Below, piece after piece: positions 37,091 to 63,057 of a DNA stretch of 64,000 nt (positions within the stretch are counted from its first letter, which is position 1; the number at the start of each line of letters is the position of its first letter). A program made the position numbers and the translations under genes. Below the pieces are notes generated by a model that was not told the DNA's origin, made no database searches, and saw nothing but the letters and a program-made list of their open reading frames with translations. Source of the stretch: a virus (lineage: Duplodnaviria > Caudoviricetes); the IMG/VR virus record IMGVR_UViG_3300009158_002556, positions 1 to 64,000 of that record. One strand, given 5' to 3'.

Positions 37091-37092
37091 AG

Positions 37093-48251: not shown

Positions 48252-48279
48252 ATATTTACATATGTATATATGTAAATAT
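48252..48279. repeat. perfect 12-bp inverted repeat, putative operator
   Basis: ATATTTACATAT-gtat-ATATGTAAATAT, ending 3 nt before ATG 48283. Confidence 0.85.
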
Positions 48280-48282
48280 GTT

Positions 48283-48501
48283 ATGGACCAATTTGTTACA
48301 ACAGTAAAACTAGATAATGAGTTGTACTCACAATTCAAAGAAATCAACGTCAGAAGCAAAATATCTTTTCAAGACTTTGTAAATAAGTGTCTGGAGAGAT
48401 ATATTGACGATGATAACTTTAGAAACGCAATCAGCGAAAGTGTTGTGCAAAAGTTGAGTTTCAATCGACCATTTCAACTTTCAAACCCTGAAGAAAAATA
48501 A
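48283..48501 (+). CDS. ribbon-helix-helix-like DNA-binding protein
   Basis: VTTVKLD (strand) - NELYSQFKEI (helix) - SFQDFVNKCLERYI (helix). Confidence 0.55.
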   Translation: MDQFVTTVKLDNELYSQFKEINVRSKISFQDFVNKCLERYIDDDNFRNAISESVVQKLSFNRPFQLSNPEEK

Positions 48502-49052: not shown

Positions 49053-49053
49053 T

Positions 49054-50025
49054 ATGCCAGTTAACGGAAAACATCTATTACATTTAGTACCTCATGGTAT
49101 CAATAGTGACGAATTCAAACCACTTGATAACAAGCATAAATCTATTGTTAATTTGAAGAAAGAATATTTCAAAGATAAGGACTATAGTTTCGTAATCGGT
49201 TTCAATAGCAGAAATGCTCATCGTAAACATCCTGCGAATTTAATCCTAGCATTTAAATCGTTTTGTTCTACATTGACCAAAGAAGAAGCTGATAAATGTG
49301 CATTGTTACTTCACACAGATGAAGTTTGTGAAGCTGGTACTGATCTACCAACCACAACAAAAGCTATTGCTCCAGAATGCAATGTTATTTTTGATGATAG
49401 TCGAAAGACTCCCGAAGAAATGGTTGCTTTCTATAACATATGTGATGTTGTAGCAAATGTAAGTTCCAATGAAGGATTTGGTCTTAGTATCGCAGAATCA
49501 TTGATGTGTGAAACTCCAGTTATTGCTGCCGTCACTGGCGGTCTACAAGATCAATTGGGTATTACAGATGATAATGGTAATCCAGTTGAATTCACACGTG
49601 ACTTTGGTACAAATTGTACAGGAAGATATAAGAACCATGGCAAGTGGGCTAAGCCAGTATGGACCAAGGTACACAATATGCAAGGCAGTCCTCCTACACC
49701 ATATATTTTGGATGACATGACCAATTATAGTGATATTGCAGATGCGATCATGTATTGGTACTTGGTTGGTCCAGAAAAGCGTGAAGAATGTGGTAAAGAA
49801 GGTCGTCGTTGGGCAATGAATGAAGGTGGTATTAATTCAAAGAATATGTGCGACCAATTTATCAAAGCAATGGACTTCACATTAAATAACTTTAAGCCTG
49901 TTAATAAGTTTGACTTGTTTACATTCGATGGATATAATACCAAATCATTACCAGATAATGCTTTGGGATTTGATTTACACAAAATTGATATCGACGAAAT
50001 TAAAAAGGAAATAGCTACTCTATGA
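49054..50025 (+). CDS. GT-B (GT4) glycosyltransferase, C-terminal half
   Basis: VPHGIN, NSRNAHRK, YNICDV...SNEGFGLS.AESL, TGGLQDQ. Confidence 0.8.
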   Translation: MPVNGKHLLHLVPHGINSDEFKPLDNKHKSIVNLKKEYFKDKDYSFVIGFNSRNAHRKHPANLILAFKSFCSTLTKEEADKCALLLHTDEVCEAGTDLPTTTKAIAPECNVIFDDSRKTPEEMVAFYNICDVVANVSSNEGFGLSIAESLMCETPVIAAVTGGLQDQLGITDDNGNPVEFTRDFGTNCTGRYKNHGKWAKPVWTKVHNMQGSPPTPYILDDMTNYSDIADAIMYWYLVGPEKREECGKEGRRWAMNEGGINSKNMCDQFIKAMDFTLNNFKPVNKFDLFTFDGYNTKSLPDNALGFDLHKIDIDEIKKEIATL

Positions 50026-50702
50026 AAATTCAAGTATTAAAAAACGAAGACTATCAAGGTGTAGATAATCTACCCAAAAAAGGTACAGATAGAGCTACGG
50101 GTTATGATGTAGTTGCTACAAGTGAACCAGAAATTGTTGGTGAAACAAAAGATAATATCACATATACCAGAGTAGATTATATTCAATATAAGACTAACCT
50201 TAAACTATCTGTACAAAAAGATCGTCAATTCAGTAACTTTGGTTATACAGATATTGATCATGATGTATTAGCATTTCCACGTAGTAGTGTTAGCAAGTAC
50301 AATTTAGTACTGGCTAATTGTATTGGATTAATTGACGCAGATTATCGTGGGGAAGTATTACTTCGTTTCAAATATATCTGGCAACCAGAAGATTATAAAA
50401 TTACAAAGGATAATCTTTTGGAAGGTATCGTCAATATCAACAAAATCTACAAAAAAGGTGATAAAGTTTGTCAACTCAAAGCAACTAAAGTAGAAAATGT
50501 AGAATTTGTTTTAGTGAACGAGTTGGATTCTACCAAGAGAGGTGATGGTGGTTTTGGAAGCACAGATACAAAGAAAGCTCCAACTGCCGAAGATGCTAGT
50601 AAACATATGAATACAATGGAAGCAATTTATACAAAATTAGGCGGTACTAACTATGTACCAAAAAAGTATGTGGAAATAATGAAAGAAAGGAACTTACAAT
50701 AA
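50022..50702 (+). CDS. dut: trimeric dUTPase
   Basis: ATGYDV, PRSS, GLIDADYRGE, CQL, RGDGGFGSTD. Confidence 0.92.
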   Translation: MKIQVLKNEDYQGVDNLPKKGTDRATGYDVVATSEPEIVGETKDNITYTRVDYIQYKTNLKLSVQKDRQFSNFGYTDIDHDVLAFPRSSVSKYNLVLANCIGLIDADYRGEVLLRFKYIWQPEDYKITKDNLLEGIVNINKIYKKGDKVCQLKATKVENVEFVLVNELDSTKRGDGGFGSTDTKKAPTAEDASKHMNTMEAIYTKLGGTNYVPKKYVEIMKERNLQ

Positions 50703-50703
50703 T

Positions 50704-52047
50704 ATGAACAAACCGTTGTGTGTAATTCAGGCACCAGTTTTTAATCGTAGTGGTTATGGAGATTGGGCTACTACAATCGCCAAGAGTCTAATTCGTCAAG
50801 ATAAATACGACTTAAAGATTCTACCAACACGTTGGGGTAATTGTCAAACCAAGAGATTCGTAGAAGAGTTAAATGATCCAAATGATCAAGTACTATTCTC
50901 TAAGTTCCTACAAAAAGGATTGGATAAACAACCAGACTTATTTATTCAAGTTACCATTCCAAATGAATTTCAAAAGGTTGGTAAGTATAACATTGGTATG
51001 ACCGCCGGTATTGAAACTACCGCTTGTGCAGGTGAGTGGATTGAAGGTGTAAATCGTATGGATCTAACCATTGGTCTATCAAATCATGTTAAGAAAACAT
51101 TCCAAGATACCAAATACAAAAAGAAATCGGAAAATGGTAAAGAAGAGCCCATCGAAGTAAACAAACCAATGGAAGTTTGTTTTTGGGGAGCCAACACAGA
51201 TATCTATAAGAAAACTGACATCATTGAACCAAACGTTGATAGTGCTTTGTCCAAGATTTCAGAAAAATATGCATTTTTGTTTGTTGGTCAATGGACGCAT
51301 CAAGGTTTATACAATGATCGTAAAGATATTGGAAACCTTATCAAAACATTTTGTAATACGTTCAAGAACTTTGATGTAAATAATAGACCTTGTTTGATTC
51401 TAAAGACAAATGGTGCTGGTTACTCAACCGTTGATCGATTTGATACACTAGAAAGAATCAATAAGATTCGTGATAGTGTAAGTCCAAATTCTCCAAGTGT
51501 TTATCTATTACATGGTGAATTGAATGATGTTGAAATGAATAGTTTGTTCAACCATCCAAAGGTAATCAGTCACATATCATTTACCCATGGTGAAGGTTTT
51601 GGTCATCCTATGTTGTTATCAACATTAAGCGGTAAGCCACTTCTTGCTCCAAACTGGAGTGGTCATTTGGACTATTTGAATCCAGCAAATGCAAATCTAT
51701 TGCCTGGTACTTTGGTTGATGTTGATAAAAAATCAGTTAATGAGTGGATCATCAAGGAAAGTAAGTGGTTTAGAGTATCTTATTCACTCGCTGAAGATAA
51801 GATGAAGTACATTTATCAGCACAGAAACAATGATAAAGTTATTCAAAAAGCTGAATATCTACGTGCTGAAAATGCTGAGAAGTTTAGTTTACAAGCAATG
51901 GATACCAAGTTGTGGTCTATATTGGATAAATATGTTCCAGTATTTGCCACTGAGAATAAGTTTGTTCTACCCAAATTAAAATCAGTTGGTAGTTTAGTTG
52001 CGAATGCAACCGATAAATTAGTATTACCAAAGTTAAAGATGCAATAA
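50704..52047 (+). CDS. GT-B (GT4-like) glycosyltransferase
   Basis: RSGYG, AGIET, FLFVGQW, RKDIGNLIKTF, THGEGFG, APNWSGHLD. Confidence 0.82.
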   Translation: MNKPLCVIQAPVFNRSGYGDWATTIAKSLIRQDKYDLKILPTRWGNCQTKRFVEELNDPNDQVLFSKFLQKGLDKQPDLFIQVTIPNEFQKVGKYNIGMTAGIETTACAGEWIEGVNRMDLTIGLSNHVKKTFQDTKYKKKSENGKEEPIEVNKPMEVCFWGANTDIYKKTDIIEPNVDSALSKISEKYAFLFVGQWTHQGLYNDRKDIGNLIKTFCNTFKNFDVNNRPCLILKTNGAGYSTVDRFDTLERINKIRDSVSPNSPSVYLLHGELNDVEMNSLFNHPKVISHISFTHGEGFGHPMLLSTLSGKPLLAPNWSGHLDYLNPANANLLPGTLVDVDKKSVNEWIIKESKWFRVSYSLAEDKMKYIYQHRNNDKVIQKAEYLRAENAEKFSLQAMDTKLWSILDKYVPVFATENKFVLPKLKSVGSLVANATDKLVLPKLKMQ

Positions 52048-52048
52048 T

Positions 52049-52696
52049 ATGTTTTTGTCATATCTAGTTACTTGTCATAACGAAACCTCTAGCTTAGATA
52101 AACTACTATCCAAGTTAGTACAAAATAAAAAAGATAACCATGAAATTGTTCTTCTTGATGATTATTCGGATAATCCAGAGTCTTTGGAGATTATACAAAA
52201 ATATAAAGAAAAAACGTCGTTCCATCAACACAAACTAGATCGTAACTATGGCGCACACAAAAACTATGGTATTGAACAATGCAAAGGTACTTGGATATTT
52301 CAGCTTGATGGAGATGAATATCCAACAGATCTTCTTTTGGAAAATATAGATGTGGTGTTGGAATCTAATGTTGATAACGAAGTACTTTGGTTGCCAAGAC
52401 TCAATTACTTTACAGGTGTTACTGAGTTAGATGTAAAGACTTGGGGTTGGAATTATCAAGATGGTATGATAAACTATCCAGATTACCAATCCCGTATCTA
52501 TAGAAATCTTTCACATATTCGATATCAACGTAGACTACATGAAAAGGTTGAGGGATTTAAATCGTATACATTTGTTCCTCCACAAAAGGATTATGCAATC
52601 GTACATGAGAAAACTATTGAAAAGCAACGTCAAACCAACTTAAACTATAACAAACTCTTCAGTGAGGACGAAAATAAAGGATATAACGTAAGATGA
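52049..52696 (+). CDS. GT2 glycosyltransferase
   Basis: VTCHNE, LLDDYS, WIFQLDGDE, PDYQSRIY, LHEKV. Confidence 0.85.
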   Translation: MFLSYLVTCHNETSSLDKLLSKLVQNKKDNHEIVLLDDYSDNPESLEIIQKYKEKTSFHQHKLDRNYGAHKNYGIEQCKGTWIFQLDGDEYPTDLLLENIDVVLESNVDNEVLWLPRLNYFTGVTELDVKTWGWNYQDGMINYPDYQSRIYRNLSHIRYQRRLHEKVEGFKSYTFVPPQKDYAIVHEKTIEKQRQTNLNYNKLFSEDENKGYNVR

Positions 52697-53328
52697 AACA
52701 CATAAACTATTTTGATTTGGGACTTTGGAAAAGAGCAGATGAATTACATTATATGGTAGATGTTATATTACCACAATTTAAAAATATTACATATACAGCA
52801 TATGGAATTGAAGCGCATCCAGAGTATGCGAATGACATAAAAAACAAGTATCGTAATAATCCTAATGTAAAAATATTTAATAAAGCAATTTCAAATAATG
52901 TTTCTAAATCTAAATTATTTATATCCGATATCAATAATGGTTTGGGAAATTCAATATTTAAAACAAAAAATAATGTTAATATAAACTCTTATGTTGAAGT
53001 AGAAACTACACCTTTTTCTGATTGGTTAAAAGAAAATGAAATAGATTTATCTAATAGTATTAATATACTAAAAGTTAATATAGAAGGCGCGGAATTATTT
53101 CTGTGGGAAGATTTTAAAAAAAATAATTTAAGAGATAGTTTTCATATATTGTGCGGTCATCCTTCTCATGACATACATAAAGTTTCCGAATTATGTAATC
53201 GAATAGATTATTATAACTCACTTTTAGTAGAATTAAATATAAATTTAATGTACTTCTGTCATACGAATAGTCGAGTATCCACAGACAATATGACCACATC
53301 TATAACAAATTTTTTAAAAAATGAATAA
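52693..53328 (+). CDS. FkbM-family methyltransferase
   Basis: YFDLG, GIEAHP, KAIS, ILKVNIEGAE. Confidence 0.8.
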   Translation: MKHINYFDLGLWKRADELHYMVDVILPQFKNITYTAYGIEAHPEYANDIKNKYRNNPNVKIFNKAISNNVSKSKLFISDINNGLGNSIFKTKNNVNINSYVEVETTPFSDWLKENEIDLSNSINILKVNIEGAELFLWEDFKKNNLRDSFHILCGHPSHDIHKVSELCNRIDYYNSLLVELNINLMYFCHTNSRVSTDNMTTSITNFLKNE

Positions 53329-54103
53329 TATCATGTCGAATAAAAAAATAGCATACTGCATGGTAGGTTGCATAGGTGGTTTACAAGGTAAAAATCATCA
53401 AAAACTATCAGGATCTGAACTCGTTTTAGAAAACGTATCCAAAAGTTTTTTTAACAACGTCTATAAGGACAATATAGACGTTTTCATCCATTCTTGGGAT
53501 ACACACTTACACGAATCGTATTGTAAGATATATAATCCTAAAAAAATAAAGATAGAAGAACAGATAGTTTTTAATATACCAAAACACATTGATAATACTC
53601 CTCGTGCGCAGGCACATTTTAGTAGATGGTATAGTACAAATGAAGTATATAAACTTACAGACGAATATGAAAAAGAAAACAATATAAAATACGATCTTAT
53701 AGTTCTAACCAGATTAGATTTGTATTGGTTGCAAAAAGTAAATCTTTCTGAATTGAATTCGAATCTAATTAATTTAGATCAAGTCATTATGCCATATGGA
53801 ATATATGGAAGTAAAGATTCAATTGAATTAGCGGATAGATTTATCGCTTCCAATAAGAAAAATATAGAATTAGTTTCGACTTTATACAACAATATATCTG
53901 ATTATATGTTACCAAATAGATGTGGTAACTGGAATGGAATTTCTAGTCATTTCTTGTTACCATATCATTTGAAAGAATTAGGATTAAGAAATAAAGTAGA
54001 GTTTCCTTATTTTTATCACGATAAAGCGGCATTAAAACCTTTGAATGAAAGTCATTTAACAATTGCGAGAGATATTTACGAAAAAACACATTTTAAAAAA
54101 TAA
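53321..54103 (+). CDS. putative glycosyltransferase-like protein
   Basis: KIAYCMVG, DVFIHSW, YNPKK..IEEQ, YDLIVLTRLD, DRF. Confidence 0.55.
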   Translation: MNNIMSNKKIAYCMVGCIGGLQGKNHQKLSGSELVLENVSKSFFNNVYKDNIDVFIHSWDTHLHESYCKIYNPKKIKIEEQIVFNIPKHIDNTPRAQAHFSRWYSTNEVYKLTDEYEKENNIKYDLIVLTRLDLYWLQKVNLSELNSNLINLDQVIMPYGIYGSKDSIELADRFIASNKKNIELVSTLYNNISDYMLPNRCGNWNGISSHFLLPYHLKELGLRNKVEFPYFYHDKAALKPLNESHLTIARDIYEKTHFKK

Positions 54104-54106
54104 TCT

Positions 54107-56023
54107 ATGAAAACAATTTATAAACCTTGGGGAAGAGAAGAATGGTTGGAATTAAATGAAAAATATTGTTATAAACGTATTTACATTAACGCTGGATACA
54201 AGACGAGTTATCAATACCACAATTTTAAACGTGAAACCAATTATATTATTTCTGGCCAGGCAGAAATTTGGTTGGAAAATAATAACGGCGTAGTTGAAAA
54301 AACAATAATGAGCGCCGGTGAGTATTTTAACGTAACACCACCTAAAAAGCATAGAGTAATAGCTTTAACTGATATTATTCTGCAAGAAGTATCTACACCC
54401 GAAGTAGACGATGTAATTCGATTAGAAGATGATACCAATAGAAAAGATGGTAAGATTGAATCGGAACATCAAACTCCTTCTGTATTGATCCTTGCTGCTG
54501 GATTAGGTAGTCGATTGAAACATCACACCGAATCTAAAAATAAAGCATTGTTGCCTATTAATAACAAAGCTATCATTTCATATATAATCGACAAATTTCC
54601 TAAGAACTACGAGTTGGTAGTTGCCGTGGGTTATAAGAAGGATTCATTGATTGAATATTGTACAGTAGCACATCCCGATAGAAAGTTTACGTTTGTTCAT
54701 GTAGATAAATGGGAAAATCCCAATGTAGGACCTGGTTATTCAACTTTAAAGTGTAAACAACATTTACAAAAGCCATTCTATATAATTACAGCCGATTGTT
54801 TAATCGATTCAGAACTTCCTTCTATTGACGGAAATTGGTTGGGTGTATATCCTACTAGTTATCCAGAAAAATATTCAACGATTAACGTAGATCCAAACGG
54901 AAACGTATTAGACTTTAAAAATAAATGTAAAAATGGTTATGACCAAGCATTTATAGGATTAGCCAGTGTTTTCGATTACGAAATTTTCTGGAAAGAATTG
55001 GAAACAAATACCACTGACTATGAACTAGTATCAGCTTGGTTTAATTCTAAAAAATATTCTACACTAAAATCGAAAGAACTAAAATGGTTTGATACTGGCA
55101 ATTTGGATGATATTCAAAATACAAAATCGCATTTTAAAGACGTTCCATTGTCATTACATAAAAATATAGACGAAATTACGTATAAAATTAACAATAAATT
55201 CTTGAAGTTTAATGCAGATGTTCAGATTACCAATAACAGATGTAATAGAGGACTAAAATTAAGATCATTGGTACCAAATAACTTAAGATCAAATAACAAC
55301 TTTCTTTCATATGATTGGACAGATGGCATTACATTATATGAATACAATTCTTATAATATCTACTCTAAGTTTCTGCCATTTTTTAAGAACACAATTGATA
55401 ATTCAAAAACGTGGTTAGATTCAAATCTCATTAGTAAATTTTACGTAGATAAAACAAACGTAAGAAAAAAAATGTTTTTAAATTTGTACGGCGATGACTT
55501 TCTAAATAAAAGGTTTAATATCAACGACGTTGAATATCCATCAATGTCTGAGTTACTAGATAAAGTAGATTTTCCATCGTTGTCCTCTAATTTACTATAT
55601 TCTAATTTTCACGGAGACCTACAATTCGATAATATCATTTATAATACAAAAGATGATAAATTCACATATATTGATTGGAGAGAATCTTTTGCGGGAGATA
55701 CTAATGGTGGTGATTTATATTATGATTTAGGAAAACTGTATGGCGGATGTTTGTTACCATACAATTTGTTGAAAAATGCACACTATGTTAATTTCACAGC
55801 CGGTCATTCTTATATCAAATATGACTATCAAATTAACGATTCTTTAAAGGAATTTACAAGTACATACGAAAATTGGTTGACTAGTAATGGCTATAATTTA
55901 AACAAGGTCAAATTGATTACAGGTTTAATCTATCTAAACATGTCTCCGCTACATGATTCAAAGTTTAATAAACTTTTATGGTTTAAATCAATTGAACTAT
56001 TAAATGAATGTGTCAATAAATAA
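54107..56023 (+). CDS. three-domain fusion: cupin + sugar-phosphate nucleotidyltransferase + APH/choline-kinase-like domain
   Basis: KPWG...YQYH..K.ET...EVSTP (cupin, to about 54470); LILAAGLGSRL...KALL...WFDTG; FHGDLQFDNII...IDWR...YDLGKL. Confidence 0.82.
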   Translation: MKTIYKPWGREEWLELNEKYCYKRIYINAGYKTSYQYHNFKRETNYIISGQAEIWLENNNGVVEKTIMSAGEYFNVTPPKKHRVIALTDIILQEVSTPEVDDVIRLEDDTNRKDGKIESEHQTPSVLILAAGLGSRLKHHTESKNKALLPINNKAIISYIIDKFPKNYELVVAVGYKKDSLIEYCTVAHPDRKFTFVHVDKWENPNVGPGYSTLKCKQHLQKPFYIITADCLIDSELPSIDGNWLGVYPTSYPEKYSTINVDPNGNVLDFKNKCKNGYDQAFIGLASVFDYEIFWKELETNTTDYELVSAWFNSKKYSTLKSKELKWFDTGNLDDIQNTKSHFKDVPLSLHKNIDEITYKINNKFLKFNADVQITNNRCNRGLKLRSLVPNNLRSNNNFLSYDWTDGITLYEYNSYNIYSKFLPFFKNTIDNSKTWLDSNLISKFYVDKTNVRKKMFLNLYGDDFLNKRFNINDVEYPSMSELLDKVDFPSLSSNLLYSNFHGDLQFDNIIYNTKDDKFTYIDWRESFAGDTNGGDLYYDLGKLYGGCLLPYNLLKNAHYVNFTAGHSYIKYDYQINDSLKEFTSTYENWLTSNGYNLNKVKLITGLIYLNMSPLHDSKFNKLLWFKSIELLNECVNK

Positions 56024-56657
56024 GGATACAAAAATATATTGTAGTTTTAGCAAAACAGCCGGTAATAAAGGATGTGAATTCTTTAACAAATCATTTGCAA
56101 AATATAATATAGATGCCTTATACAAATCGTTTTCTATTAATAATATAAACGATGCTTATAAAGCGGCACTTTGTCTTAAATTTTCAGGTTGTGCAATTGC
56201 TATGCCTTTTAAAAAACAAGCATACGAACTTGTAACATATAAAGATGAAAGTGCCGAATTAAGCAAATCTGTAAATACTATTATATTCGATCATAATACA
56301 GATACATCTATAGGGTATAATACAGATTATTATGCTACAGACATCATTCTTAAACCTTATATAAAAACCTATAAAATTATTAACATACTAGGCAACGGCG
56401 GATTATCTACCGCCGTTCAAGCTAAATGTCGTGATTTAGGATTTGAAGTAAATCTAATAACAAGAGAAAACTGGAATACAATTAAAGATTTAAAAGATTC
56501 GTTAATATTTAATTGTACGTCTGTTAATAATATAGAGGTAAAACCAAACAACGTTTTTATAGATTGTATAATAGGAACCAGCACAGGCGACGAGTTTCAT
56601 AAGTATCAATCACATAAACAATTTACGTTATATACAAATCTAATATATGAAGTATAG
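56004..56657 (+). CDS. shikimate-dehydrogenase-like (AroE fold) oxidoreductase
   Basis: AIAMPFK, SVNTI, GYNTDY, ILGNGGLS, IFNCT. Confidence 0.75.
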   Translation: MNVSINKDTKIYCSFSKTAGNKGCEFFNKSFAKYNIDALYKSFSINNINDAYKAALCLKFSGCAIAMPFKKQAYELVTYKDESAELSKSVNTIIFDHNTDTSIGYNTDYYATDIILKPYIKTYKIINILGNGGLSTAVQAKCRDLGFEVNLITRENWNTIKDLKDSLIFNCTSVNNIEVKPNNVFIDCIIGTSTGDEFHKYQSHKQFTLYTNLIYEV

Positions 56658-57642
56658 GTATGGAATAGGAGTGATGTCCAAAAATATTGTAGACGAGTGT
56701 ATAAATTATGCTAATAATTTTAATGTAAACATTGCTTTCATACCATCACGTAGACAAGTAGACAACGATGGTGGTTATGTAAACAACTGGACAACCGAAA
56801 CATTTTCTTATTATGTTAAATCAAAAACGAGTAATATAATACTTAAAAGAGATCACGGCGGTCCACATCAAGGAAAGTACGTAGATGATGGTACCATTTC
56901 ATTATATAATGATTGTATATACTTTGATTCTATACACATAGATCCTTGGAAAATTGCAAATAACTTTTATGAAGGGTGTGTATTAACCAAAGATCTTATT
57001 AAATTTTGTCACAACAAAAACAAAAATATTTGGTTTGAAATAGGCACAGAACAATCAATATTTCACTATGAATCAGATCAACTACACGATCTTATCAGTT
57101 ATTTAAAAAACAATTTGTCAAGTGGTGAGTATGAACAAATCAAGTATGGTGTAATACAGAGTGGTACGTCTTTAAAAGAAAATAAAAACACGGGGTCGTA
57201 TAATAATCAAAGATTGGTTGATATGGTCTCTATATGTAAGAAGTTTGGTTTGTTGTCTAAAGAACACAACGGAGATTATCTACCGTTACAATTAATCGAA
57301 GAAAAGTTTTACTATGGATTAGATGCTATTAATATAGCACCGGAGTTTGGTCAGATAGAAACAAAAACATATCTTGATGAAGTAAGATATAGTTCGTTGT
57401 TTGAAACTTTTTTTGATATCTGTTATTCTTCAAAGAAATGGGAAAAATGGGTTGACAAATCTTTTAATCCATTTATAAATAAAGAACGATTAATCAATAT
57501 ATGTGGACACTATGTGTTATCTACAGATAGATTCGTTAACGAAATTAAAAATAAAGTGAGATACGATATAGATAATCTCATACGAGAAAACATCAGAAAT
57601 AAACTAAATGAATTATACAAAACCAAAAACGATATTTTGTGA
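56647..57642 (+). CDS. GatZ/KbaZ/UxaE-like TIM-barrel (putative ketose epimerase/aldolase)
   Basis: SRRQVD..GGY, RDHGGP, IHIDP, FEIGTE, VIQSGT, KEHNGDY, NIAPEFG. Confidence 0.72.
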   Translation: MKYRYGIGVMSKNIVDECINYANNFNVNIAFIPSRRQVDNDGGYVNNWTTETFSYYVKSKTSNIILKRDHGGPHQGKYVDDGTISLYNDCIYFDSIHIDPWKIANNFYEGCVLTKDLIKFCHNKNKNIWFEIGTEQSIFHYESDQLHDLISYLKNNLSSGEYEQIKYGVIQSGTSLKENKNTGSYNNQRLVDMVSICKKFGLLSKEHNGDYLPLQLIEEKFYYGLDAINIAPEFGQIETKTYLDEVRYSSLFETFFDICYSSKKWEKWVDKSFNPFINKERLINICGHYVLSTDRFVNEIKNKVRYDIDNLIRENIRNKLNELYKTKNDIL

Positions 57643-57973
57643 TATAGATGGTACATTAGTTAAACACTATCCTCCTGATATAAATTCCGTGCCTGACTTT
57701 GAGTTAACTTTGTTGTCTGGTACATTGGAAACGCTCAGAGAATGGGATCGTAAAGGATATAATATAATACTTGTTACAGGTAGAAGAGAGAGTATGAGAC
57801 AATCAACAGAAAAACAATTAAAAAAAATAGGTATATTTTACGACCAACTAATTATGGGTATAGGCGGCGGACAACGTGTTATAATAAATGATTTTAAACC
57901 GAACAGTGACGAACCTACGGCAGCACACTTTTGTTTAAAAAGAAACGATGGTATATCAAGTTTAAATTTATAA
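57608..57973 (+). CDS. small HAD-family phosphatase
   Basis: IFCDIDGTL, LVTGR, YDQLIMG, IINDFKP. Confidence 0.8.
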   Translation: MNYTKPKTIFCDIDGTLVKHYPPDINSVPDFELTLLSGTLETLREWDRKGYNIILVTGRRESMRQSTEKQLKKIGIFYDQLIMGIGGGQRVIINDFKPNSDEPTAAHFCLKRNDGISSLNL

Positions 57974-58037
57974 AACGACATGTATATACAATTAAAAAAA
58001 TCTCAGCAACCGATATAACAGTGATTTTATAAATAAT

Positions 58038-58709
58038 ATGACAAATAAAGAATTAAGAGCCAAATACGGAGACTTTACAAAACACAATTACTACACTTAC
58101 CCAGATCATTTCTTTAGCCCAAAGGATGATTTTACCCTAAACATTCCTGTTTGGAGTAGTTACTTCACCAGATTTCTTGATCAAGAGAATCTACTTTTCC
58201 TAGAAATTGGTACTGGTCATGGTAGATCTTCAGTGTGGATGTTGGAAAATGTTTTAACTCAACCAAACTCAAGAATCATTACTGTTGATATAGAAGATGT
58301 ACGTAAGTACAAAAAAGGAGACTTATCATTTGACTTTGGCGATTCTTTATCGTTAACATTAACTCAGAATCTTCAACCTTATATTGATAAAAATAAGTGT
58401 GAGTTTTATGTCACTGACTCCAAAGAGTTTTTACGTAAATTGTATGGTGGCACCTTGGGATCTAAGTTTCTTGGTAGCGATCCTAAGAACGTATTTGACT
58501 TCATCTACCTTGATGGATGTCACGAACCAGATTATGTTATGCATGAAGCCGCAATTAGTTTTGAATTGTTAAAGAAAGGCGGATTTATTCTATTCGATGA
58601 TTATGGTTGGGGTAAATGCAGATATGGTATCGAAGCATTCTTGGAATGTTATAAGGGTAAGTACAATTTATTAATCAAGGAATGGCAAGTATTGATTGAA
58701 AAAATATGA
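58038..58709 (+). CDS. class I SAM-dependent methyltransferase
   Basis: FLEIGTGHGRSS, TVD, FDFIYLDGCH, GGFILFDDY. Confidence 0.88.
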   Translation: MTNKELRAKYGDFTKHNYYTYPDHFFSPKDDFTLNIPVWSSYFTRFLDQENLLFLEIGTGHGRSSVWMLENVLTQPNSRIITVDIEDVRKYKKGDLSFDFGDSLSLTLTQNLQPYIDKNKCEFYVTDSKEFLRKLYGGTLGSKFLGSDPKNVFDFIYLDGCHEPDYVMHEAAISFELLKKGGFILFDDYGWGKCRYGIEAFLECYKGKYNLLIKEWQVLIEKI

Positions 58710-59536
58710 TAAATATTAATAGTTTTGACGAGTTTAAAACTCTGATGAATAATCATAAAAGTTTTACTGTAAGAAGAGGTCGTGACGGATTTGGATCCCA
58801 AATGTATGCAACTATTATAGGTTTTTGTATATCAAAACAAATTAATAAACCATATTACTATTCAAGTTTATCGCCGATATCATTGATGAATGTGTCATTG
58901 TGGGGAAACTCTACAGAGAAAGCAAATAATGTATTAAGTAAAATAATGAAAAATCTCAACATCGATCACGTTGAGAATAATTCGGGTGGATGTTTAAGTA
59001 TACAACTTCCATATGGTTGTACAAACGAACAAACATTCTCAGATAAAACTTTATCAGATTTACATAATAGCTGGCCATTACCAAAACCATCCTATTTTGA
59101 AAGTGATCATGTTATAAGCATTCATATTCGTAGAGGATTAGATATCATTAAAAAAGATAAACATCGATTTTCAAGATGGGTTGAAGACCCAAACTTTTAT
59201 AAAGATATGGTTTATAAATTATCAACAAAATATCCAAAATCTAAAATCCATATTTTCTGTTGGGGAGAATGTGGTTTAGAGGATATAAAAAATGATAATT
59301 TAACAATTCATAATTCGGGTGGAAATAACTTCATAGAAGACTTTAATGCATTTGTACACTCGGATATGTTAATTGTAGCCGGAAGCACATTTAGTGTAAG
59401 TGCCGCGTTCTTTAATAAAAACACAATATTGTGTTCCAGTAAAATTTTGAAATTTAGTTCTCTCGTAGAAGAGAAATGTTATTCATCACCATTTCCAGAA
59501 ATTTGGGAACAAAATTATAATTCAACGCTTACGTAA
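58706..59536 (+). CDS. GT11/O-fucosyltransferase-like glycosyltransferase
   Basis: DGFGSQ, SIHIRRG (HxRRxD-like), SDMLIVAGSTFS..AA. Confidence 0.68.
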   Translation: MININSFDEFKTLMNNHKSFTVRRGRDGFGSQMYATIIGFCISKQINKPYYYSSLSPISLMNVSLWGNSTEKANNVLSKIMKNLNIDHVENNSGGCLSIQLPYGCTNEQTFSDKTLSDLHNSWPLPKPSYFESDHVISIHIRRGLDIIKKDKHRFSRWVEDPNFYKDMVYKLSTKYPKSKIHIFCWGECGLEDIKNDNLTIHNSGGNNFIEDFNAFVHSDMLIVAGSTFSVSAAFFNKNTILCSSKILKFSSLVEEKCYSSPFPEIWEQNYNSTLT

Positions 59537-60534
59537 TGAAAATCCAAATATTAGAACTAGAAAAACATCGTAACGAAACAACATTTAGACCTTATCTAAG
59601 TGCAATACAAACGTTTAATGAGTATGGTATTGAATTCGTAAATGAAAACCCAGACATGTATTGGGTTGGTCAAGCATCTGTTGTAAATAAAAAAGTATCT
59701 CTTCAAGAATCAATTGATAACGGATGTAAGTTTTTAGAAAATTTGGATGCTCCTTATGTGTTATTTGATGGTCAAGATTCATCATCGTTGATGGGTGTGT
59801 GGGACGTATTTAGTAAAATACCAGGCTTTAAATTAGCAAAGAATGTTGTACTAAAAAATTATTCATCTTATACCAAAAAATTTCCAAATGGCAGATGGTT
59901 TTGGGGTGAGAGTGAAACTGGATATAGTGTATCATCGGCTGACCTAGAATTATTAAATAAACGATTGGTACATAGTGGCACAAATTGGTTAAATACATTT
60001 GGTAACAAGATGGAGTTTGCCAAGATCAATAAAAACAAAAAACATGACGTTGCGGTACTTATTGGTCTATGTCCCGAGAACTATGAATATGGTAATCGGG
60101 TGGATGAATATTACAATGGTCCTCGTAGAAAACTATTTGAAGAAGTCAAGAAACTTGATTGTAATGTAATAACCACTGAAGCTACTGGCAAATTAGATAA
60201 ACAAAAATACATGCAAACTCTATATGATAGCAAACTTTGTATATCACCATTTGGTTATGGAGAAGTAAATATCAGAGAAGTTGAATGTATTGTCGCTGGT
60301 ACTCCTACTATCAAACCCAACATTGAATGTGTAAAAAGCACTCCATTTATTTATGGTAATGGATTTACATTGGATTGTAAGTCTGATTTCTCCGATTTAA
60401 AAGATGTTGTTGAATTTGCATTGTCAAACTACGATGATAGTATCAATTTATTAAATCAGCAACGTGAAGTGTTTTATCATAAATCAACCGATAACTACAT
60501 CGTTAAACATGTAATCAAAAATATATTGTCATAA
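59536..60534 (+). CDS. GT-B glycosyltransferase-like protein (exostosin/CgeB-like C-terminus)
   Basis: YM..LYDSKLCISPFGYGE...RE.E...GTP.IKP, DFSDL. Confidence 0.62.
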   Translation: MKIQILELEKHRNETTFRPYLSAIQTFNEYGIEFVNENPDMYWVGQASVVNKKVSLQESIDNGCKFLENLDAPYVLFDGQDSSSLMGVWDVFSKIPGFKLAKNVVLKNYSSYTKKFPNGRWFWGESETGYSVSSADLELLNKRLVHSGTNWLNTFGNKMEFAKINKNKKHDVAVLIGLCPENYEYGNRVDEYYNGPRRKLFEEVKKLDCNVITTEATGKLDKQKYMQTLYDSKLCISPFGYGEVNIREVECIVAGTPTIKPNIECVKSTPFIYGNGFTLDCKSDFSDLKDVVEFALSNYDDSINLLNQQREVFYHKSTDNYIVKHVIKNILS

Positions 60535-61547
60535 TGAAACTATCAAAAAAATATGTCATAGGTACTCACGTCATGTTCTATGAAATAGAAATGTACAAGG
60601 AGTTTGTTGATGGATTAATTAATCTAATTGACCCAATACAAAACAAAGAAAATATTCATCTACACTTTTGTTTCAACACTTCTCAATATTTTGAAAAGAT
60701 TGATACCTCAAAGATTGATGTACATCAACTATCCGATAAGTTTTATGATGGTATACAAAAACTCAAAAATATAGGTATTAATGAGAAAAATTTAGTAATT
60801 GAGTTAAAAACAGATCACGATGAGATTTACAATGTGGCTGATTATAGAAGAGATCTTAATTACAATTATTGTAAAAAGGTTGATTATATTATGTGGGGTG
60901 AGACTGATAGTTTCTTTCCAAAGGAAGCATTCAATGTAATTGAAAGCATTGCACATTATGGATCATCTGCCAATATACACAAGTATATTATTAGCTTTGC
61001 TGATCGTAAAATGTGGGATGATTCTTGGAAAGTAACAGAACATGTTGACTACGAAAATGTTAAGTTTATTGATACACCAGATCAAGTAAATAATAAAAAT
61101 TATGCCAAGTCTCAATTGAGTATAGAAGAAATGAACACGGTAAATGCAAAAACAACTGAATTTGACATTCGTACATTATCTCAACCCAAGATAGATGGTA
61201 GTTGTTTGGTATTGTCATCTGACCTAATCAAATCAGGTGTTAATCTTCCACATAGTTTGTTGTTGTATGGTGATGATTCTAGTATTGGTGTTATTGCCAA
61301 ACAAATCATGGGTGATAAGTTTATTCAGTTTGTAATAAAGAATATTCTAAAGGTTCATGCCAGAAGACATCCCAACAAACGTTTATATATTCTAAATGAA
61401 GATAACCCTAGAGGTTTTTGTGGCGATAAAAAGGGTGTGTGGTCAAATGTATTAGATCAACACTCCAAATTTAATCTACACAATATTCTTAAATCCCAAA
61501 ATAAGTTCTTTACCTTTAAAGACGTTTTTGATAAAATAAACCTATGA
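60534..61547 (+). CDS. GT-A glycosyltransferase-like protein
   Basis: YRRDLN...DYIMWGETDSF; YGDD. Confidence 0.5.
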   Translation: MKLSKKYVIGTHVMFYEIEMYKEFVDGLINLIDPIQNKENIHLHFCFNTSQYFEKIDTSKIDVHQLSDKFYDGIQKLKNIGINEKNLVIELKTDHDEIYNVADYRRDLNYNYCKKVDYIMWGETDSFFPKEAFNVIESIAHYGSSANIHKYIISFADRKMWDDSWKVTEHVDYENVKFIDTPDQVNNKNYAKSQLSIEEMNTVNAKTTEFDIRTLSQPKIDGSCLVLSSDLIKSGVNLPHSLLLYGDDSSIGVIAKQIMGDKFIQFVIKNILKVHARRHPNKRLYILNEDNPRGFCGDKKGVWSNVLDQHSKFNLHNILKSQNKFFTFKDVFDKINL

Positions 61548-62110
61548 CTATAGACGAAATACTATCTTTGGTACCAGACAAATTTGAACACAAAACCACC
61601 ACTTCAAAAAAGTTTAAGCGTGATGTTTTTACATTCTTTGATAAACCCGAGTTCAAAAACAAAACTGCTTTGGAAATTGGATCCAATTTGGGTTATACCA
61701 CCTTTATTCTAAGTTACCTATTCAACCAAGTATATGGCATCAATGAAAAAGAATTTGACAAGGCCGATGAGTTTTGTAAACAAAATGGTAGAACCAACGT
61801 CAAGTTCTTTGGTCAAGATGTATACAAATACGGGCTTCCTGTTGATACTGCCGATGTAATTATGGTGGATGCTCTCCACACCTACGATGCGGTCCAAATA
61901 GACGTATATAACGCCTTAAAGTTAAAATCGGACGGTAAGAAGTACTTCATCTTTGACGATGTGGGCGCTTATCCAGAAATTATCAACTCACTCAATGATC
62001 TTTTTGAAAAAAATGTTATTAAGCCAATCGTAAAGATCGGTCATAGTGATGAAGAAAAGTTCACCAGGCCATTACATGATTGGGAAGGAGTAATTTGCAT
62101 CGAAGTATGA
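61544..62110 (+). CDS. class I SAM-dependent methyltransferase
   Basis: ALEIGSNLGYTT, IMVDALHTY, FIFDD. Confidence 0.82.
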   Translation: MTIDEILSLVPDKFEHKTTTSKKFKRDVFTFFDKPEFKNKTALEIGSNLGYTTFILSYLFNQVYGINEKEFDKADEFCKQNGRTNVKFFGQDVYKYGLPVDTADVIMVDALHTYDAVQIDVYNALKLKSDGKKYFIFDDVGAYPEIINSLNDLFEKNVIKPIVKIGHSDEEKFTRPLHDWEGVICIEV

Positions 62111-63057
62111 ACATTTGTTTTATCAGTCAAAATGGTCATAGTGGTAAGTTACCAAGAAACTTTGTAAACTGTCGTACAGAGTTTGCGTGGCAAATTGCTT
62201 TGAATGCCGATCACTATAACTTTCAAGAATGGTTTTTATCTAACAAAAATAAAAGTTATGATTTAATTATAGTTTTGTTACCCAAGAAACTTGAAATTGT
62301 TGACACAAATATGTTATTAGAAAGTGTCAAATCTTCTGGTAAGAAGGTAACTGTTATGCAAGAAGGACCAGCTTGGTACTATCAAGATTATAATTATGTC
62401 AACCAAGTTAATTATATTAACTTTGTGAGTGAGATGGATTTTCTACTAACTCACAATACTAGTGATATTTCATACTTCAAAGGTGTATTTAATAAACCTT
62501 CATTCAATCTACAATCTCTTATGATTGAAGATACTATCAAAGATGTACCCCGTGAAAACAACAAGATACCTATTATTGGTGGTAACTTTTGTAGTTGGTA
62601 TGGTGGTATAGATAGTTACTTTGTAGCGCAAGTATTCAACAAACCCATCTTTATACCAAGTATGGGTCGTAAAATAGAAAACGAAGATCAATTTCCTAGT
62701 TTACATCATTTACCATACATGATGTGGAATGAATGGATTAAAGCACTCGCTAATTTTAATGTGGGTATACATTTGATGCGTACTCACGCAGCTGGTACTT
62801 TTGCTCTCAATTGTGCATATCTAGGTATACCATGTATCGGATATAAAGGATTAGATACACAACAAATATTACACCCAGAGTTATCTGTGGATATTGGTGA
62901 CATTGAACAATCAAAAAAGCTAGCAAATAAACTTAAAAACGACATTTCTTTTTATAATTCGTGTTCACAACAATCTAGAGAATTATATCAAATATATTAT
63001 ACAGAACAAAAATGGTTAGATAATTGGAAAACAATATATGAGCAAATCAAAAACTAA
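62107..63057 (+). CDS. GT-B glycosyltransferase-like protein
   Basis: GIHLM...AGTFALNCAYLGIPCIG, donor-binding-like C-terminus; start moved to 62107 (ATGA overlap). Confidence 0.55.
   Translation: MNICFISQNGHSGKLPRNFVNCRTEFAWQIALNADHYNFQEWFLSNKNKSYDLIIVLLPKKLEIVDTNMLLESVKSSGKKVTVMQEGPAWYYQDYNYVNQVNYINFVSEMDFLLTHNTSDISYFKGVFNKPSFNLQSLMIEDTIKDVPRENNKIPIIGGNFCSWYGGIDSYFVAQVFNKPIFIPSMGRKIENEDQFPSLHHLPYMMWNEWIKALANFNVGIHLMRTHAAGTFALNCAYLGIPCIGYKGLDTQQILHPELSVDIGDIEQSKKLANKLKNDISFYNSCSQQSRELYQIYYTEQKWLDNWKTIYEQIKN

What the first reader, a model, noticed from the sequence alone, without database searches (positions are those of the whole stretch)
54107..57973. Four-gene module of unassigned chemistry: cupin-nucleotidyltransferase-kinase fusion, AroE-like reductase, GatZ-like epimerase and HAD phosphatase
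Seen: four overlapping, co-oriented genes between a GT-like gene and a methyltransferase/GT11 block. No other shikimate or tagatose genes are present, so neither fold is in its textbook pathway. Established: together these folds supply isomerisation, C4-epimerisation or aldol chemistry, NAD(P)H reduction, dephosphorylation, phosphorylation and NDP activation, which is the logic of rare-sugar or alditol donor pathways such as heptose synthesis. Inference: a previously unassigned route from a central ketose-phosphate to a novel NDP-sugar or NDP-alditol for the neighbouring transferases or LicD.
Basis: partly seen in the sequence, partly recalled or inferred. Interest (0 to 1): 0.7.

Follow-up and report, generated by a model that had tools for sequence, protein, structure and literature searches.

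The report
Phage cassette activating an unknown sugar
Four overlapping genes in a large marine T4-like phage are one copy of a widespread, still uncharacterised enzyme cassette that most likely turns a common sugar phosphate into a nucleotide-activated rare sugar for a glycan, by a kinase-phosphatase-nucleotidyltransferase route so far shown experimentally only for a phage DNA sugar.

Summary
Four co-oriented, overlapping genes (54107-57973) encode a PMI-type cupin + nucleotidyltransferase + APH-fold kinase fusion, a short SdhL/AroE-like NADP(H) dehydrogenase, a compact GatZ/KbaZ-fold protein and a 121-aa HAD phosphatase. The window is a large T4-like phage.

The set is conserved as a unit. 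In 53 loci from phage contigs and from CPR, DPANN, Bdellovibrionales, SAR86 and Flavobacteriaceae MAGs, I found the cupin in 53, NTase in 52, GatZ-like in 51, a reductase in 47 and a HAD in at least 43. Natural fusions join the GatZ-like protein to NTase-kinase, HAD and cupin.

The closest characterised system is the phage Afh route to UDP-D-arabinofuranose. The kinase profile matches RB69 gp52, and sister loci carry an AfhF-type HAD.

Best reading (inferred):
- ketose-6-P undergoes C4 epimerisation;
- PMI-like isomerisation follows;
- the anomeric position is phosphorylated;
- the terminal phosphate is removed;
- the sugar 1-phosphate becomes an NDP-sugar, used by the adjacent GT-A-fold protein.

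The AroE-like reductase is frequent but dispensable, and its step is unassigned. The sugar made is unknown. The link to LicD is not supported.

This scan has found the same cassette at least eight times on other DNA, with the same reading.

The parts
53321..54103 (+). DUF7796-like protein with a GT-A glycosyltransferase fold. It is the candidate transferase for the cassette's product.
   Evidence: Weak PF25072 hit. AF2 model has pLDDT 78. Foldseek top hits are GT6 enzymes (ABO GTA/GTB, alpha3GalT) at E about 3e-8 and TMq 0.5-0.59. Homologues lie next to the cassette in L007-L010 and L012-L017, and in L020. Invariant R131-x-D133 and D172.
54107..54451 (+). Cupin domain of the fusion protein: PMI type II-like aldose-ketose isomerase.
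   Evidence: PF01050 1.9e-8 and TIGR01479 GMP_PMI C-terminus. Invariant Q36, H38, E43 and H82, which I read from memory as the PMI-type Gln/His/Glu/His metal site. It is 46-78% identical (mostly 60-78%) to cupins of the cellular cassettes.
54464..55141 (+). Nucleotidyltransferase domain of the fusion protein.
   Evidence: PF00483 and PF12804. Best solved relative is LicC 1jyk at 6.7e-8, then G1P cytidylyltransferase 1tzf. Invariant G132, G134, R136 and K146.
55142..56023 (+). APH/protein-kinase-like fold kinase domain of the fusion protein, the probable anomeric kinase of a sugar omega-phosphate.
   Evidence: Invariant H502-G-D504...N509 and D523-W. Atlas features 0.98 to APH clusters. hhalign of profile A5 to RB69 gp52 (AfhE-type kinase): 93%, E 3.5e-7, 233 columns. 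No solved sequence relative.
56004..56657 (+). Short SdhL/AroE-family NADP(H)-dependent dehydrogenase. It is an accessory reductase and its step is unassigned.
   Evidence: PRK12550 4.6e-32. 1npy 6e-21. Invariant S14, K70 (MPFK), N91, T92, N106, D108 (NTD), G130/G132/G133, R154 and Q206; S16 nearly invariant. A solved AroE-family sugar ketoreductase exists: 7cok, 1.6e-17.
56647..57642 (+). Compact GatZ/KbaZ-fold, class II aldolase-like protein, the probable metal-dependent C4 epimerase of a ketose phosphate.
   Evidence: D69, H70, E135 and H207 align with GatZ D87, H88, E171 and H257 (PMC11907403). Natural fusions join it to NTase-kinase, HAD and cupin.
57608..57973 (+). Small capless HAD phosphatase, the probable remover of the terminal phosphate.
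   Evidence: DIDGT motif. HAD_PNKP, Acid_phosphat_B and weak GmhB hits. Orthologues lie in or beside the cassette in 10 phage loci. The slot is filled by an AfhF-type HAD in L003 and L007-L010/L017, and by a KdsC-like HAD in cells.

Best explanation
The four genes, together with the upstream GT-A-fold gene, are a self-contained cassette that makes a nucleotide-activated rare sugar from a central ketose phosphate without a phosphomutase.

Proposed order (all steps inferred):
1. The GatZ-like enzyme epimerises C4 of a ketose omega-phosphate by a metal-dependent retro-aldol/aldol reaction. The most likely case is fructose-6-P to tagatose-6-P.
2. The diverged PMI-type cupin isomerises that ketose phosphate to an aldose phosphate, in the talose or galactose configuration if the substrate is a hexose.
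3. The APH-fold kinase phosphorylates the anomeric hydroxyl, giving a 1,omega-bisphosphate.
4. The small HAD removes the terminal phosphate.
5. The nucleotidyltransferase domain makes the NDP-sugar.
6. The adjacent GT-A-fold protein transfers the sugar into the glycan that the phage's many soluble glycosyltransferases and methyltransferases build.

The AroE-like NADP(H) enzyme is a frequent but dispensable ketoreductase. It either tailors or supplies an intermediate, and its step is not assigned.

Shown here: gene and domain identities, conserved catalytic residues, and conservation and fusion of the parts. Inferred: the substrates, the order of steps and the product.
For: Linkage of the parts:
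- The trio of fusion, AroE-like and GatZ-like genes lies in the same order in 16 of 16 phage contigs that have downstream sequence.
- Across 53 loci: cupin 53, NTase 52, GatZ-like 51, reductase 47, HAD 43 or more.
- The parts occur in another gene order in CPR, DPANN and proteobacterial MAGs.
- Rosetta-stone fusions: P0275 (GatZ+NTase+kinase), P0283 (GatZ+HAD), P0318 (GatZ+cupin+NTase+kinase) and P0415.

Catalytic residues are conserved in every part.

Each step has a precedent:
- GatZ/KbaZ are F6P/T6P C4 epimerases with D87/H88/E171/H257 (PMC11907403).
- NTase-kinase AfhE plus HAD AfhF convert Araf5P to Araf1,5P2, then Araf1P, then UDP-Araf (PMC13326640).

Direct links to the Afh system:
- Kinase profile against RB69 gp52: 93%, E 3.5e-7.
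- HADs of sister loci L007 and L009 against RB69 gp51: E 1e-17 and 7e-18.
- The cellular HAD is KdsC-like, a family of terminal-phosphate phosphatases.

Further points:
- Three HAD subfamilies and two reductase families fill the same slots. This non-orthologous displacement argues that the steps are needed.
- Cassettes without a reductase (L055, L059, L020) still hold exactly the five activities that the proposed route uses.
- The Flavobacteriaceae locus L021 has a separate canonical PMI (112.7 bits) beside the cassette's diverged cupin, so the latter probably has another substrate.
- A GT-A-fold neighbour fits a glycosyl donor.
Against: - No enzyme of the cassette has been assayed. The substrate could be F6P, S7P or a pentulose-5-P, and the nucleotide and the sugar are unknown.
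- The reductase has no place in the proposed route, although it is present in about 89% of loci and in all 16 IMG/VR phage loci that have downstream sequence.
- The window's own HAD shows no detectable similarity to AfhF.
- The NTase domain's nearest solved relative is a phospho-alcohol cytidylyltransferase (LicC), and JGI names the kinase 'choline kinase'. This would also fit activation of an alcohol.
- Cellular loci were retrieved with cupin peptide patterns, so the cupin count is biased.
- Some MAG contigs may be viral.
Confidence: 0.5

Rival explanations
1. NDP-alditol route. The GatZ-like enzyme makes tagatose-6-P or another ketose-P, and the AroE-like enzyme reduces it to a hexitol phosphate. 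Kinase and HAD then move the phosphate to the other end, and the LicC-like NTase makes a CDP-hexitol. That donor is transferred as an alditol phosphate.
For: - The reductase is present in 47 of 53 loci and has intact NADP(H) and catalytic motifs.
- The NTase is closest to LicC.
- CDP-6-D-glucitol is made from F6P by an NTase plus an NADPH reductase (PMC10918830).
- Classical SDRs that replace the AroE-like gene resemble polyol and sugar dehydrogenases.
Against: - The cupin isomerase has no role, yet it is fused to the NTase-kinase.
- Complete cassettes lack any reductase (L055, L059, L020).
- The adjacent transferase has a GT-A glycosyltransferase fold, not a LicD or TagF type.
- The only LicD in the window has its own cytidylyltransferase.
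Confidence: 0.15
2. The cassette supplies a sugar for DNA hypermodification, as the Afh module does for arabinosyl-5-hydroxycytosine, rather than for a protein or polysaccharide glycan.
For: - It has the same NTase-kinase plus HAD architecture as RB69/HY126.
- As in RB69, the cluster lies next to the DNA polymerase gene.
- A dUTPase-like gene and GT-B genes sit just upstream.
- No ORF from 48501 to 63844 has a membrane segment.
Against: - tblastn found no homologue in the window of the 5hodCMP synthase (RB69 gp48) and no credible match to the arabinose-5-P isomerase (gp55); only the 64-kb window could be searched.
- The phage carries more than 15 glycosyltransferase-like genes, several sugar methyltransferases, GT11, Gmd and LicD, far more than any known DNA sugar needs.
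- The same cassette sits in cellular O-antigen-type loci with WecA-like, Wzy_C and flippase genes.
Confidence: 0.1
3. Phospho-alcohol activation of the LicA/LicC or CDP-2-glycerol type. The class II aldolase-like enzyme and the HAD yield dihydroxyacetone, the reductase makes glycerol, and the choline-kinase-like domain and the LicC-like domain make a CDP-alcohol.
For: The NTase's best solved hit is LicC, and sources name the kinase 'choline kinase'. I recall a reductase-kinase-cytidylyltransferase logic for CDP-2-glycerol in pneumococci. This is from memory; the search found only the locus paper.
Against: - The cupin has no role.
- The kinase profile aligns with the sugar-phosphate kinase of RB69 over 233 columns.
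- Sister loci use an AfhF-type sugar-bisphosphate phosphatase.
- Reductase-free cassettes exist.
Confidence: 0.07
4. The genes are neighbours by chance. On this view the AroE-like gene is an ordinary shikimate dehydrogenase, an auxiliary metabolic gene for the host's aromatic pathway.
For: The cellular orthologue L022 passes the TIGR00507 aroE cut-off (223 against 200 bits). The catalytic Lys/Asp dyad and the Ser-x-Ser motif are kept.
Against: - The position is conserved inside the cassette in 37 loci of unrelated lineages, including CPR and DPANN, which I recall generally lack the shikimate pathway.
- A classical SDR stands in the same place in 10 loci.
- The genes overlap.
- The phage protein falls far below the curated aroE cut-offs (62.5 against 200.2; 111 against 306).
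- No other shikimate gene is among the window ORFs scanned.
Confidence: 0.03

Closest known systems
Phage Afh route to UDP-D-arabinofuranose: arabinose-5-P isomerase, AfhE (NTase-kinase) and AfhF (HAD) of E. coli phage HY126, with counterparts RB69 gp55, gp53:52 and gp51 (PMC13326640)
   Same: - A bifunctional protein with the NTase N-terminal to an APH-fold kinase.
- A small HAD that removes the terminal phosphate of a 1,omega-bisphosphate.
- An isomerase that makes the aldose phosphate.
- No mutase.
- Phage-encoded, and beside the DNA polymerase gene.
- Kinase homology by hhalign (93%, E 3.5e-7).
- An AfhF-type HAD in sister loci.
   Different: - The isomerase is a PMI-type cupin fused to the NTase-kinase, not a SIS-type API.
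- There are two extra enzymes: a GatZ-like epimerase and an AroE-like reductase.
- The window's HAD belongs to another subfamily.
- There is no 5hodCMP synthase in the window.
- The context is a large glycan locus, and cellular O-antigen-type loci elsewhere.
GDP-D-glycero-alpha-D-manno-heptose pathway (GmhA, HddA, GmhB, HddC)
   Same: The order isomerase, anomeric kinase, HAD phosphatase of the terminal phosphate, nucleotidyltransferase, starting from a central ketose phosphate. There are weak HddC and GmhB family hits.
   Different: GmhA is a SIS isomerase and HddA a GHMP kinase, and neither family is present here. The enzymes are not fused, and that pathway has no C4 epimerase or AroE-like enzyme.
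GatZ/KbaZ, fructose-6-P/tagatose-6-P 4-epimerases of E. coli and Agrobacterium (PMC11907403)
   Same: The same fold (TMq up to 0.80). The profile hits 2fiq at 6.8e-9. Equivalents of the base Asp and of the His/Glu/His metal ligands are conserved. It is paired with a HAD phosphatase, as in the engineered tagatose route and in the Listeria PTS operon.
   Different: It has 331 rather than about 420 residues. The single sequence is not recognised by PF08013. It sits in a biosynthetic nucleotide-sugar context rather than a catabolic galactitol or GalNAc context.
SdhL (HI0607, 1npy) and 5-ketofructose reductase (7cok) of the shikimate dehydrogenase family
   Same: SdhL is the best hit. The Lys/Asp dyad, NADP-type Arg and glycine motif are kept. 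The 5-ketofructose reductase shows that this family can reduce keto-sugars.
   Different: It is about 55 residues shorter than SdhL through deletions in the Rossmann domain. It scores below all curated cut-offs, and its substrate is unknown.
CDP-6-D-glucitol pathway of Campylobacter jejuni HS:5 (PMC10918830)
   Same: A ketose-6-phosphate, a nucleotidyltransferase and an NADPH reductase make a glycan donor.
   Different: That pathway has two enzymes only, and its reductase is an extended SDR acting on the nucleotide-linked ketose. It has no kinase, phosphatase, isomerase or epimerase.

Membership tests
Afh-type UDP-arabinofuranose module | Bifunctional NTase (N-terminal) plus APH-fold kinase (C-terminal) homologous to AfhE / RB69 gp53:52 | tested here: met
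   The domain order is the same. Kinase profile against RB69 gp52: hhalign 93%, E 3.5e-7, 233 columns. The NTase match is only generic (72%, 75 columns).
Afh-type UDP-arabinofuranose module | AfhF-type small HAD (RB69 gp51) | tested here: not met
   P0004 against RB69 gp51 gives no BLASTP alignment. Sister loci L003, L007 and L009 do carry an AfhF-type HAD in the same slot (E 5e-14 to 7e-18).
Afh-type UDP-arabinofuranose module | SIS-type arabinose-5-phosphate isomerase and a 5hodCMP synthase with DNA arabinosyltransferases | tested here: not met
   tblastn of RB69 gp55 and gp48 against the window finds nothing credible (best E 1.1 for gp55, none for gp48). The isomerase here is a cupin.
GatZ/KbaZ family (PF08013) | Sequence membership and fold | tested here: inconclusive
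   P0003 alone gives no PF08013 hit at E <= 0.01. The family profile hits 2fiq at 6.8e-9. Foldseek puts 3txv and 2fiq on top at TMq 0.75-0.80. A 29%-identical Listeria homologue and the cellular orthologue L022 do hit PF08013. It is a divergent compact subfamily.
GatZ/KbaZ family (PF08013) | Catalytic Asp and His/Glu/His metal ligands (GatZ D87, H88, E171, H257) | tested here: met
   D69 is invariant, and H70, E135 and H207 are conserved in at least 90% of 57 sequences. They align with the GatZ motifs DHLGP, GTE and EAHSTDY.
Shikimate dehydrogenase AroE / SdhL | Curated family score | tested here: not met
   TIGR00507 gives 62.5 bits against a cut-off of 200.2, and PRK12550 gives 111.3 against 306. 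The cellular orthologue L022 passes TIGR00507 (223.4) but not PRK12550.
Shikimate dehydrogenase AroE / SdhL | Catalytic Lys/Asp dyad and NADP(H) site | tested here: met
   K70, D108, G130/G132/G133 and R154 are invariant in 12 phage sequences.
Shikimate dehydrogenase AroE / SdhL | Activity on 3-dehydroshikimate | not testable with these tools
   This needs an enzyme assay.
Type II phosphomannose isomerase cupin (PF01050) | Family score and Gln/His/Glu/His metal site | tested here: met
   34.9 bits against a cut-off of 23.6. Q36, H38, E43 and H82 are invariant. It is diverged, however: in L021 a canonical PMI scoring 112.7 bits stands beside the cassette's cupin.
GDP-heptose pathway (GmhA/HddA/GmhB/HddC) | SIS isomerase and GHMP kinase | tested here: not met
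   The four genes have no SIS or GHMP domain. The HddC and GmhB hits are weak (E 4.5e-9 and 0.0035, far below the cut-offs). It works like this pathway but is not a member.
LicA/LicC/LicD phosphocholine system | Choline kinase, phosphocholine cytidylyltransferase and an adjacent LicD transferase | tested here: not met
   LicC is the best solved NTase hit. However, the LicD gene lies at 33350-34360 on the minus strand and is fused to its own CTP_transf_like domain. The cassette's neighbour has a GT-A fold.

The most novel reading that the evidence does not exclude
The cassette makes a nucleotide sugar that has never been described. One candidate is an NDP-D-talose or another C4-epimerised hexose or heptose made directly from fructose-6-P or sedoheptulose-7-P. 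On this reading the cassette also contains the first biosynthetic GatZ-type epimerase and an AroE-family enzyme working as a sugar(-phosphate) ketoreductase. The phage uses the product with a new GT-A family (DUF7796-like) and only soluble enzymes, so it would glycosylate its own virion proteins or DNA rather than a lipid-linked host polysaccharide.
Probability: 0.3. Interest if true: 0.75.

Novelty: new variant of a known kind. Interest (0 to 1): 0.6.

Why it matters
- The cassette is abundant. The search found 922 relatives of the fusion protein and 4870 of the GatZ-like protein.
- It crosses domains: marine and freshwater phages, ultra-small CPR bacteria and DPANN archaea, and proteobacterial and Flavobacteriaceae surface-glycan loci.
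- Identifying its product would name a new building block of microbial and viral glycans.
- It would give GatZ-type proteins and SdhL-type 'shikimate dehydrogenases' a biosynthetic function.
- It would show that the mutase-free kinase/phosphatase route, recently shown for phage UDP-arabinose, is a general way to activate sugars.
- For phage biology, it bears on what a T4-like phage does with more than 15 soluble glycosyltransferases.

Tried and rejected
- The genome-contig scan with P0001 alone found nothing. Alignment A1 was too diverse to give search patterns. A2 worked.
- PDB sequence searches gave nothing for P0003 as a single sequence, for the DUF7796-like profile or for the kinase-only profile.
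- A search for longer proteins fused to the AroE-like domain found none, which is weak evidence.
- Literature searches for the gene combination, DUF7796 and NDP-talose/tagatose names found nothing relevant. The HS1 capsule paper and the CDP-2-glycerol search gave no usable link.
- Promoter and terminator scans were at chance level.
- I considered and rejected LicD as the user of the product, a chance neighbourhood and the legacy PDB title 'tagatose-6-phosphate kinase' for the GatZ fold.
- I could not find a chemically sensible linear route that uses the reductase together with all five other activities. Ideas considered were 5-keto-ketose reduction, a lactaldehyde or deoxy-ketose aldol route, inosose reduction and hexitol phosphate relocation. 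None has specific support.

Full report
**Observation.** The four ORFs are present as described. They lie at 54107-56023, 56004-56657, 56647-57642 and 57608-57973, all on the + strand, and overlap by 20, 11 and 35 nt. A 3-nt gap separates them from the upstream gene and 64 nt from the downstream one. They belong to an unbroken co-directional run of 18 ORFs from 48501 to 63844. No promoter or terminator signal in that run rises above chance.

**The window is a phage.** It encodes a T4-type family B DNA polymerase (43037-45697, phrog_262, 1e-175), a clamp loader, an SNF2 helicase and a tail-lysozyme-like protein. GC content is about 30%. There is no nucleotide-level relative among deposited phages. 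The closest polymerase is that of Microcystis phage Mel-JY01, at 41%.

**What each gene is.**

*P0001 (638 aa)* has three domains.
- Residues 2-108 form a PMI type II cupin (PF01050, above cut-off; TIGR01479 C-terminus).
- Residues 126-340 form a nucleotidyltransferase. Its best solved relative is LicC.
- The C-terminal 290 residues carry the HGDxxxxN and DW motifs of APH/protein-kinase-like kinases.
- In 25 homologues the putative PMI metal ligands (Q36, H38, E43, H82), the NTase signature (G132, G134, R136, K146) and the kinase catalytic loop are all invariant.

*P0002 (217 aa)* belongs to the SdhL branch of the shikimate dehydrogenase family (1npy 6e-21; PRK12550 4.6e-32, below cut-off).
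- Twelve phage orthologues of 204-230 aa keep the Ser-x-Ser motif, the catalytic Lys70/Asp108 dyad, the GxGG motif, Arg154 and Gln206.
- I read Arg154 as the residue that binds the 2'-phosphate of NADP. That assignment is from memory.
- The shortening comes from deletions inside the Rossmann domain, not from loss of the C-terminal motif.

*P0003 (331 aa)* has no Pfam hit on its own, but the evidence for a GatZ fold is good.
- A profile of 57 relatives hits E. coli GatZ (2fiq, 6.8e-9) and KbaY.
- The AlphaFold model (pLDDT 96.6) matches 3txv and 2fiq best (TMq 0.75-0.80), then class II aldolases.
- GatZ and KbaZ were shown in 2025 to be fructose-6-P/tagatose-6-P C4 epimerases. They use Asp87 and a metal held by His88, Glu171 and His257 (PMC11907403).
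- The aligned residues here (D69, H70, E135, H207) are conserved.

*P0004 (121 aa)* is a capless HAD with the DxDGT motif.

**Conservation as a unit.**
- In 17 IMG/VR contigs found with P0001, the fusion, AroE-like and GatZ-like genes follow each other in the same order in all 16 that have downstream sequence.
- A small HAD follows or precedes them. It is either the window's type, or a second type in L003, L007-L010 and L017 that BLAST did not link to P0004 but that carries DLDGTL/DLDDTL motifs.
- A scan of one genome per prokaryotic species found the same parts in another order: HAD, AroE-like, NTase-kinase, GatZ-like, cupin. The carriers are MAGs of Patescibacteria, DPANN archaea, Bdellovibrionales, SAR86, Pseudomonadales and Halieaceae.
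- Counting all 53 loci that hold the kinase domain: cupin 53, NTase 52, GatZ-like 51, a reductase 47 (AroE-like 37, classical SDR 10) and a HAD at least 43. The cupin count is biased, because the cellular loci were retrieved with cupin peptides.
- Natural fusions tie the parts together: GatZ+NTase+kinase (P0275), GatZ+HAD (P0283), GatZ+cupin+NTase+kinase (P0318) and NTase+kinase+GatZ (P0415).
- Three unrelated HAD subfamilies and two unrelated reductase families occupy the same slots. This is the pattern expected when the step, not the protein, is under selection.

**The closest known system.** A 2026 paper (PMC13326640) summarises experiments on E. coli phage HY126.
- AfhE is an NTase-kinase fusion that phosphorylates arabinofuranose-5-P at C1.
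- AfhF is a HAD that removes the 5-phosphate.
- The NTase domain of AfhE then makes UDP-arabinofuranose. An arabinose-5-P isomerase supplies the substrate.
- RB69 gp55, gp53:52 and gp51 are the counterparts.

I tested the relation directly.
- The cassette's kinase profile aligns with RB69 gp52 over 233 columns (93%, E 3.5e-7). It finds no solved kinase at all.
- The second-type HADs of L003, L007 and L009 are 33-41% identical to RB69 gp51 (E 5e-14 to 7e-18).
- The window's own HAD is not detectably related to gp51.
- The window has no homologue of the 5hodCMP synthase and no credible match to the SIS isomerase.

It is not a member of either.

**Mechanism.** Cassettes that lack any reductase (L055, L059, L020) still hold exactly five activities. 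These form a coherent line: C4 epimerase, isomerase, anomeric kinase, terminal phosphatase, nucleotidyltransferase. Several observations bear on this order.
- The KdsC-like identity of the cellular HAD fits removal of a terminal phosphate.
- In the Flavobacteriaceae locus L021, a canonical PMI (112.7 bits) stands beside the cassette's diverged cupin. The cassette's cupin therefore probably does not simply interconvert F6P and M6P.
- Stand-alone relatives of the cupin pair with ManC-type guanylyltransferases or ROK kinases. It therefore descends from true PMIs acting on hexose-6-phosphates.
- Starting from F6P, the route would give tagatose-6-P, then talose-6-P or galactose-6-P, then the 1,6-bisphosphate, the 1-phosphate and the NDP-hexose.
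- Sedoheptulose-7-P or a pentulose-5-P are equally allowed by the data.
- Every substrate assignment here is inference.

**The reductase.** It is intact, NADP-type and nearly always present, so it matters. I could not place it in the route.
- The family is not restricted to shikimate. A solved 5-ketofructose reductase (7cok) matches the phage profile at 1.6e-17, and such enzymes are highly specific for the keto-sugar.
- An sdhL gene sits beside, and is induced with, the L-sorbose operon in E. coli ST648.
- These are leads that it reduces a keto-sugar or keto-sugar phosphate, and nothing more.

**Who uses the product.**
- The upstream gene (53321-54103) is a DUF7796-like protein. Its homologues flank the cassette in most phage loci.
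- Its model has a GT-A fold nearest to GT6 enzymes. This favours a glycosyl donor over a phospho-alditol donor.
- None of the 18 ORFs from 48501 to 63844 has a membrane segment. In contrast, the cellular loci have flippases, WecA-like and Wzy_C proteins.
- The phage may therefore glycosylate a soluble acceptor such as virion proteins, or rely on host membrane steps.
- A DNA target cannot be excluded. It is unlikely, given the many transferases and methyltransferases and the lack of a base-modifying enzyme in the window.

**Novelty and earlier findings.** I found no paper describing this gene combination or its product. Parts of the logic are known (Afh, heptose, GatZ epimerase), so I class it as a new variant of a known kind. 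This scan had already met the cassette at least eight times in other genomes, and its follow-up reports reached the same reading. I reached mine from the calls cited above before reading those notes, and I retested the main claims here.

**What this window adds to the earlier reports:**
- the triple fusion with the cupin;
- the short AroE-like form;
- the AfhF-type HAD displacement in sister phages;
- the GT-A-fold partner;
- the Flavobacteriaceae O-antigen locus that carries the phage-type arrangement at 55% identity, which points to a possible host lineage.

**Limits.**
- Not every ORF of the window was annotated.
- Some MAG contigs may be viral.
- Fused ORFs from metagenomes could include assembly or gene-calling errors, though four independent architectures agree.

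Noticed in passing
window 33350-34360 (-): A 336-aa protein joins a LicD domain to a TagD-type CTP_transf_like cytidylyltransferase. This is a self-supplied phospho-alcohol transferase in a phage.
   Followed up: partly
window 30325-41000: There is a second glycan gene block on the minus strand. It holds two GT25, a GT2-like, GT4-type and GT90-like (35957-37090) genes and a Methyltransf_24, between the lysozyme-containing late genes and the clamp loader. With the 48.5-64 kb block, the phage has more than 15 glycosyltransferase-like genes.
   Followed up: partly
window 48501-63844: None of the 18 co-directional ORFs has a predicted membrane segment. There is no flippase, polymerase or initiating phosphoglycosyltransferase, unlike the cellular loci that hold the same cassette. 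The acceptor may be soluble: virion protein or DNA.
   Followed up: partly
window 48501-52047: Four genes are co-conserved upstream of the cassette in L002, L004-L006, L011, L015 and L016: a GT4 N-terminal-like ORF, a GT4 ORF, a 226-aa protein with a dUTPase C-terminal motif, and a 447-aa protein with no Pfam hit but a GT-B-like EGFG motif. The first two ORFs are fused in L004, L005 and L016.
   Followed up: partly
window 63038-63844: A UDP-glucose/GDP-mannose dehydrogenase-like ORF of only 268 aa has part of the N-terminal domain and the central domain but no UDP-binding domain. It may be split or truncated near the window end.
   Followed up: no
L021 (PBNP01000013.1, Flavobacteriaceae MAG) 3847-13820: The phage-type arrangement (cupin-NTase-kinase fusion at 55% identity, short AroE-like, GatZ-like, small HAD) sits in a cellular O-antigen-type locus. 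That locus also has a WecA-like GT4, a Wzy_C ligase, Ugd and a separate canonical PMI. It hints at gene exchange with, and perhaps a host among, marine Flavobacteriaceae.
   Followed up: partly
L101 (RB69) 9709-12599 compared with window 43037-57973: In both RB69 and this phage the sugar-activation genes lie next to the family B DNA polymerase gene.
   Followed up: no
L022-L057 (cellular cassettes): Several gene families recur beside the cassette: CTP_transf_3 cytidylyltransferases (17 loci), B12-binding radical SAM enzymes (20 loci), C-methyltransferase-like and FkbM methyltransferases, and GDP-mannose dehydratase-like SDRs. They suggest a heavily methylated glycan that also contains an ulosonic acid.
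   Followed up: partly
L019 (OR846727.1, 'Listeria phage' contig) 3021-8988: A 422-aa GatZ-like protein, 29% identical to P0003, lies in a PTS operon (regulator, IIA, IIC, IIB) and is followed by a HAD phosphatase. The contig looks like bacterial chromosome rather than phage.
   Followed up: partly
OX422066.1 (Enterococcus phage Planchet) 53439-54014: A gene annotated 'Glycosyltransferase' matches the kinase domain of P0001 (residues 445-632, 24% identity, E 2e-6).
   Followed up: no
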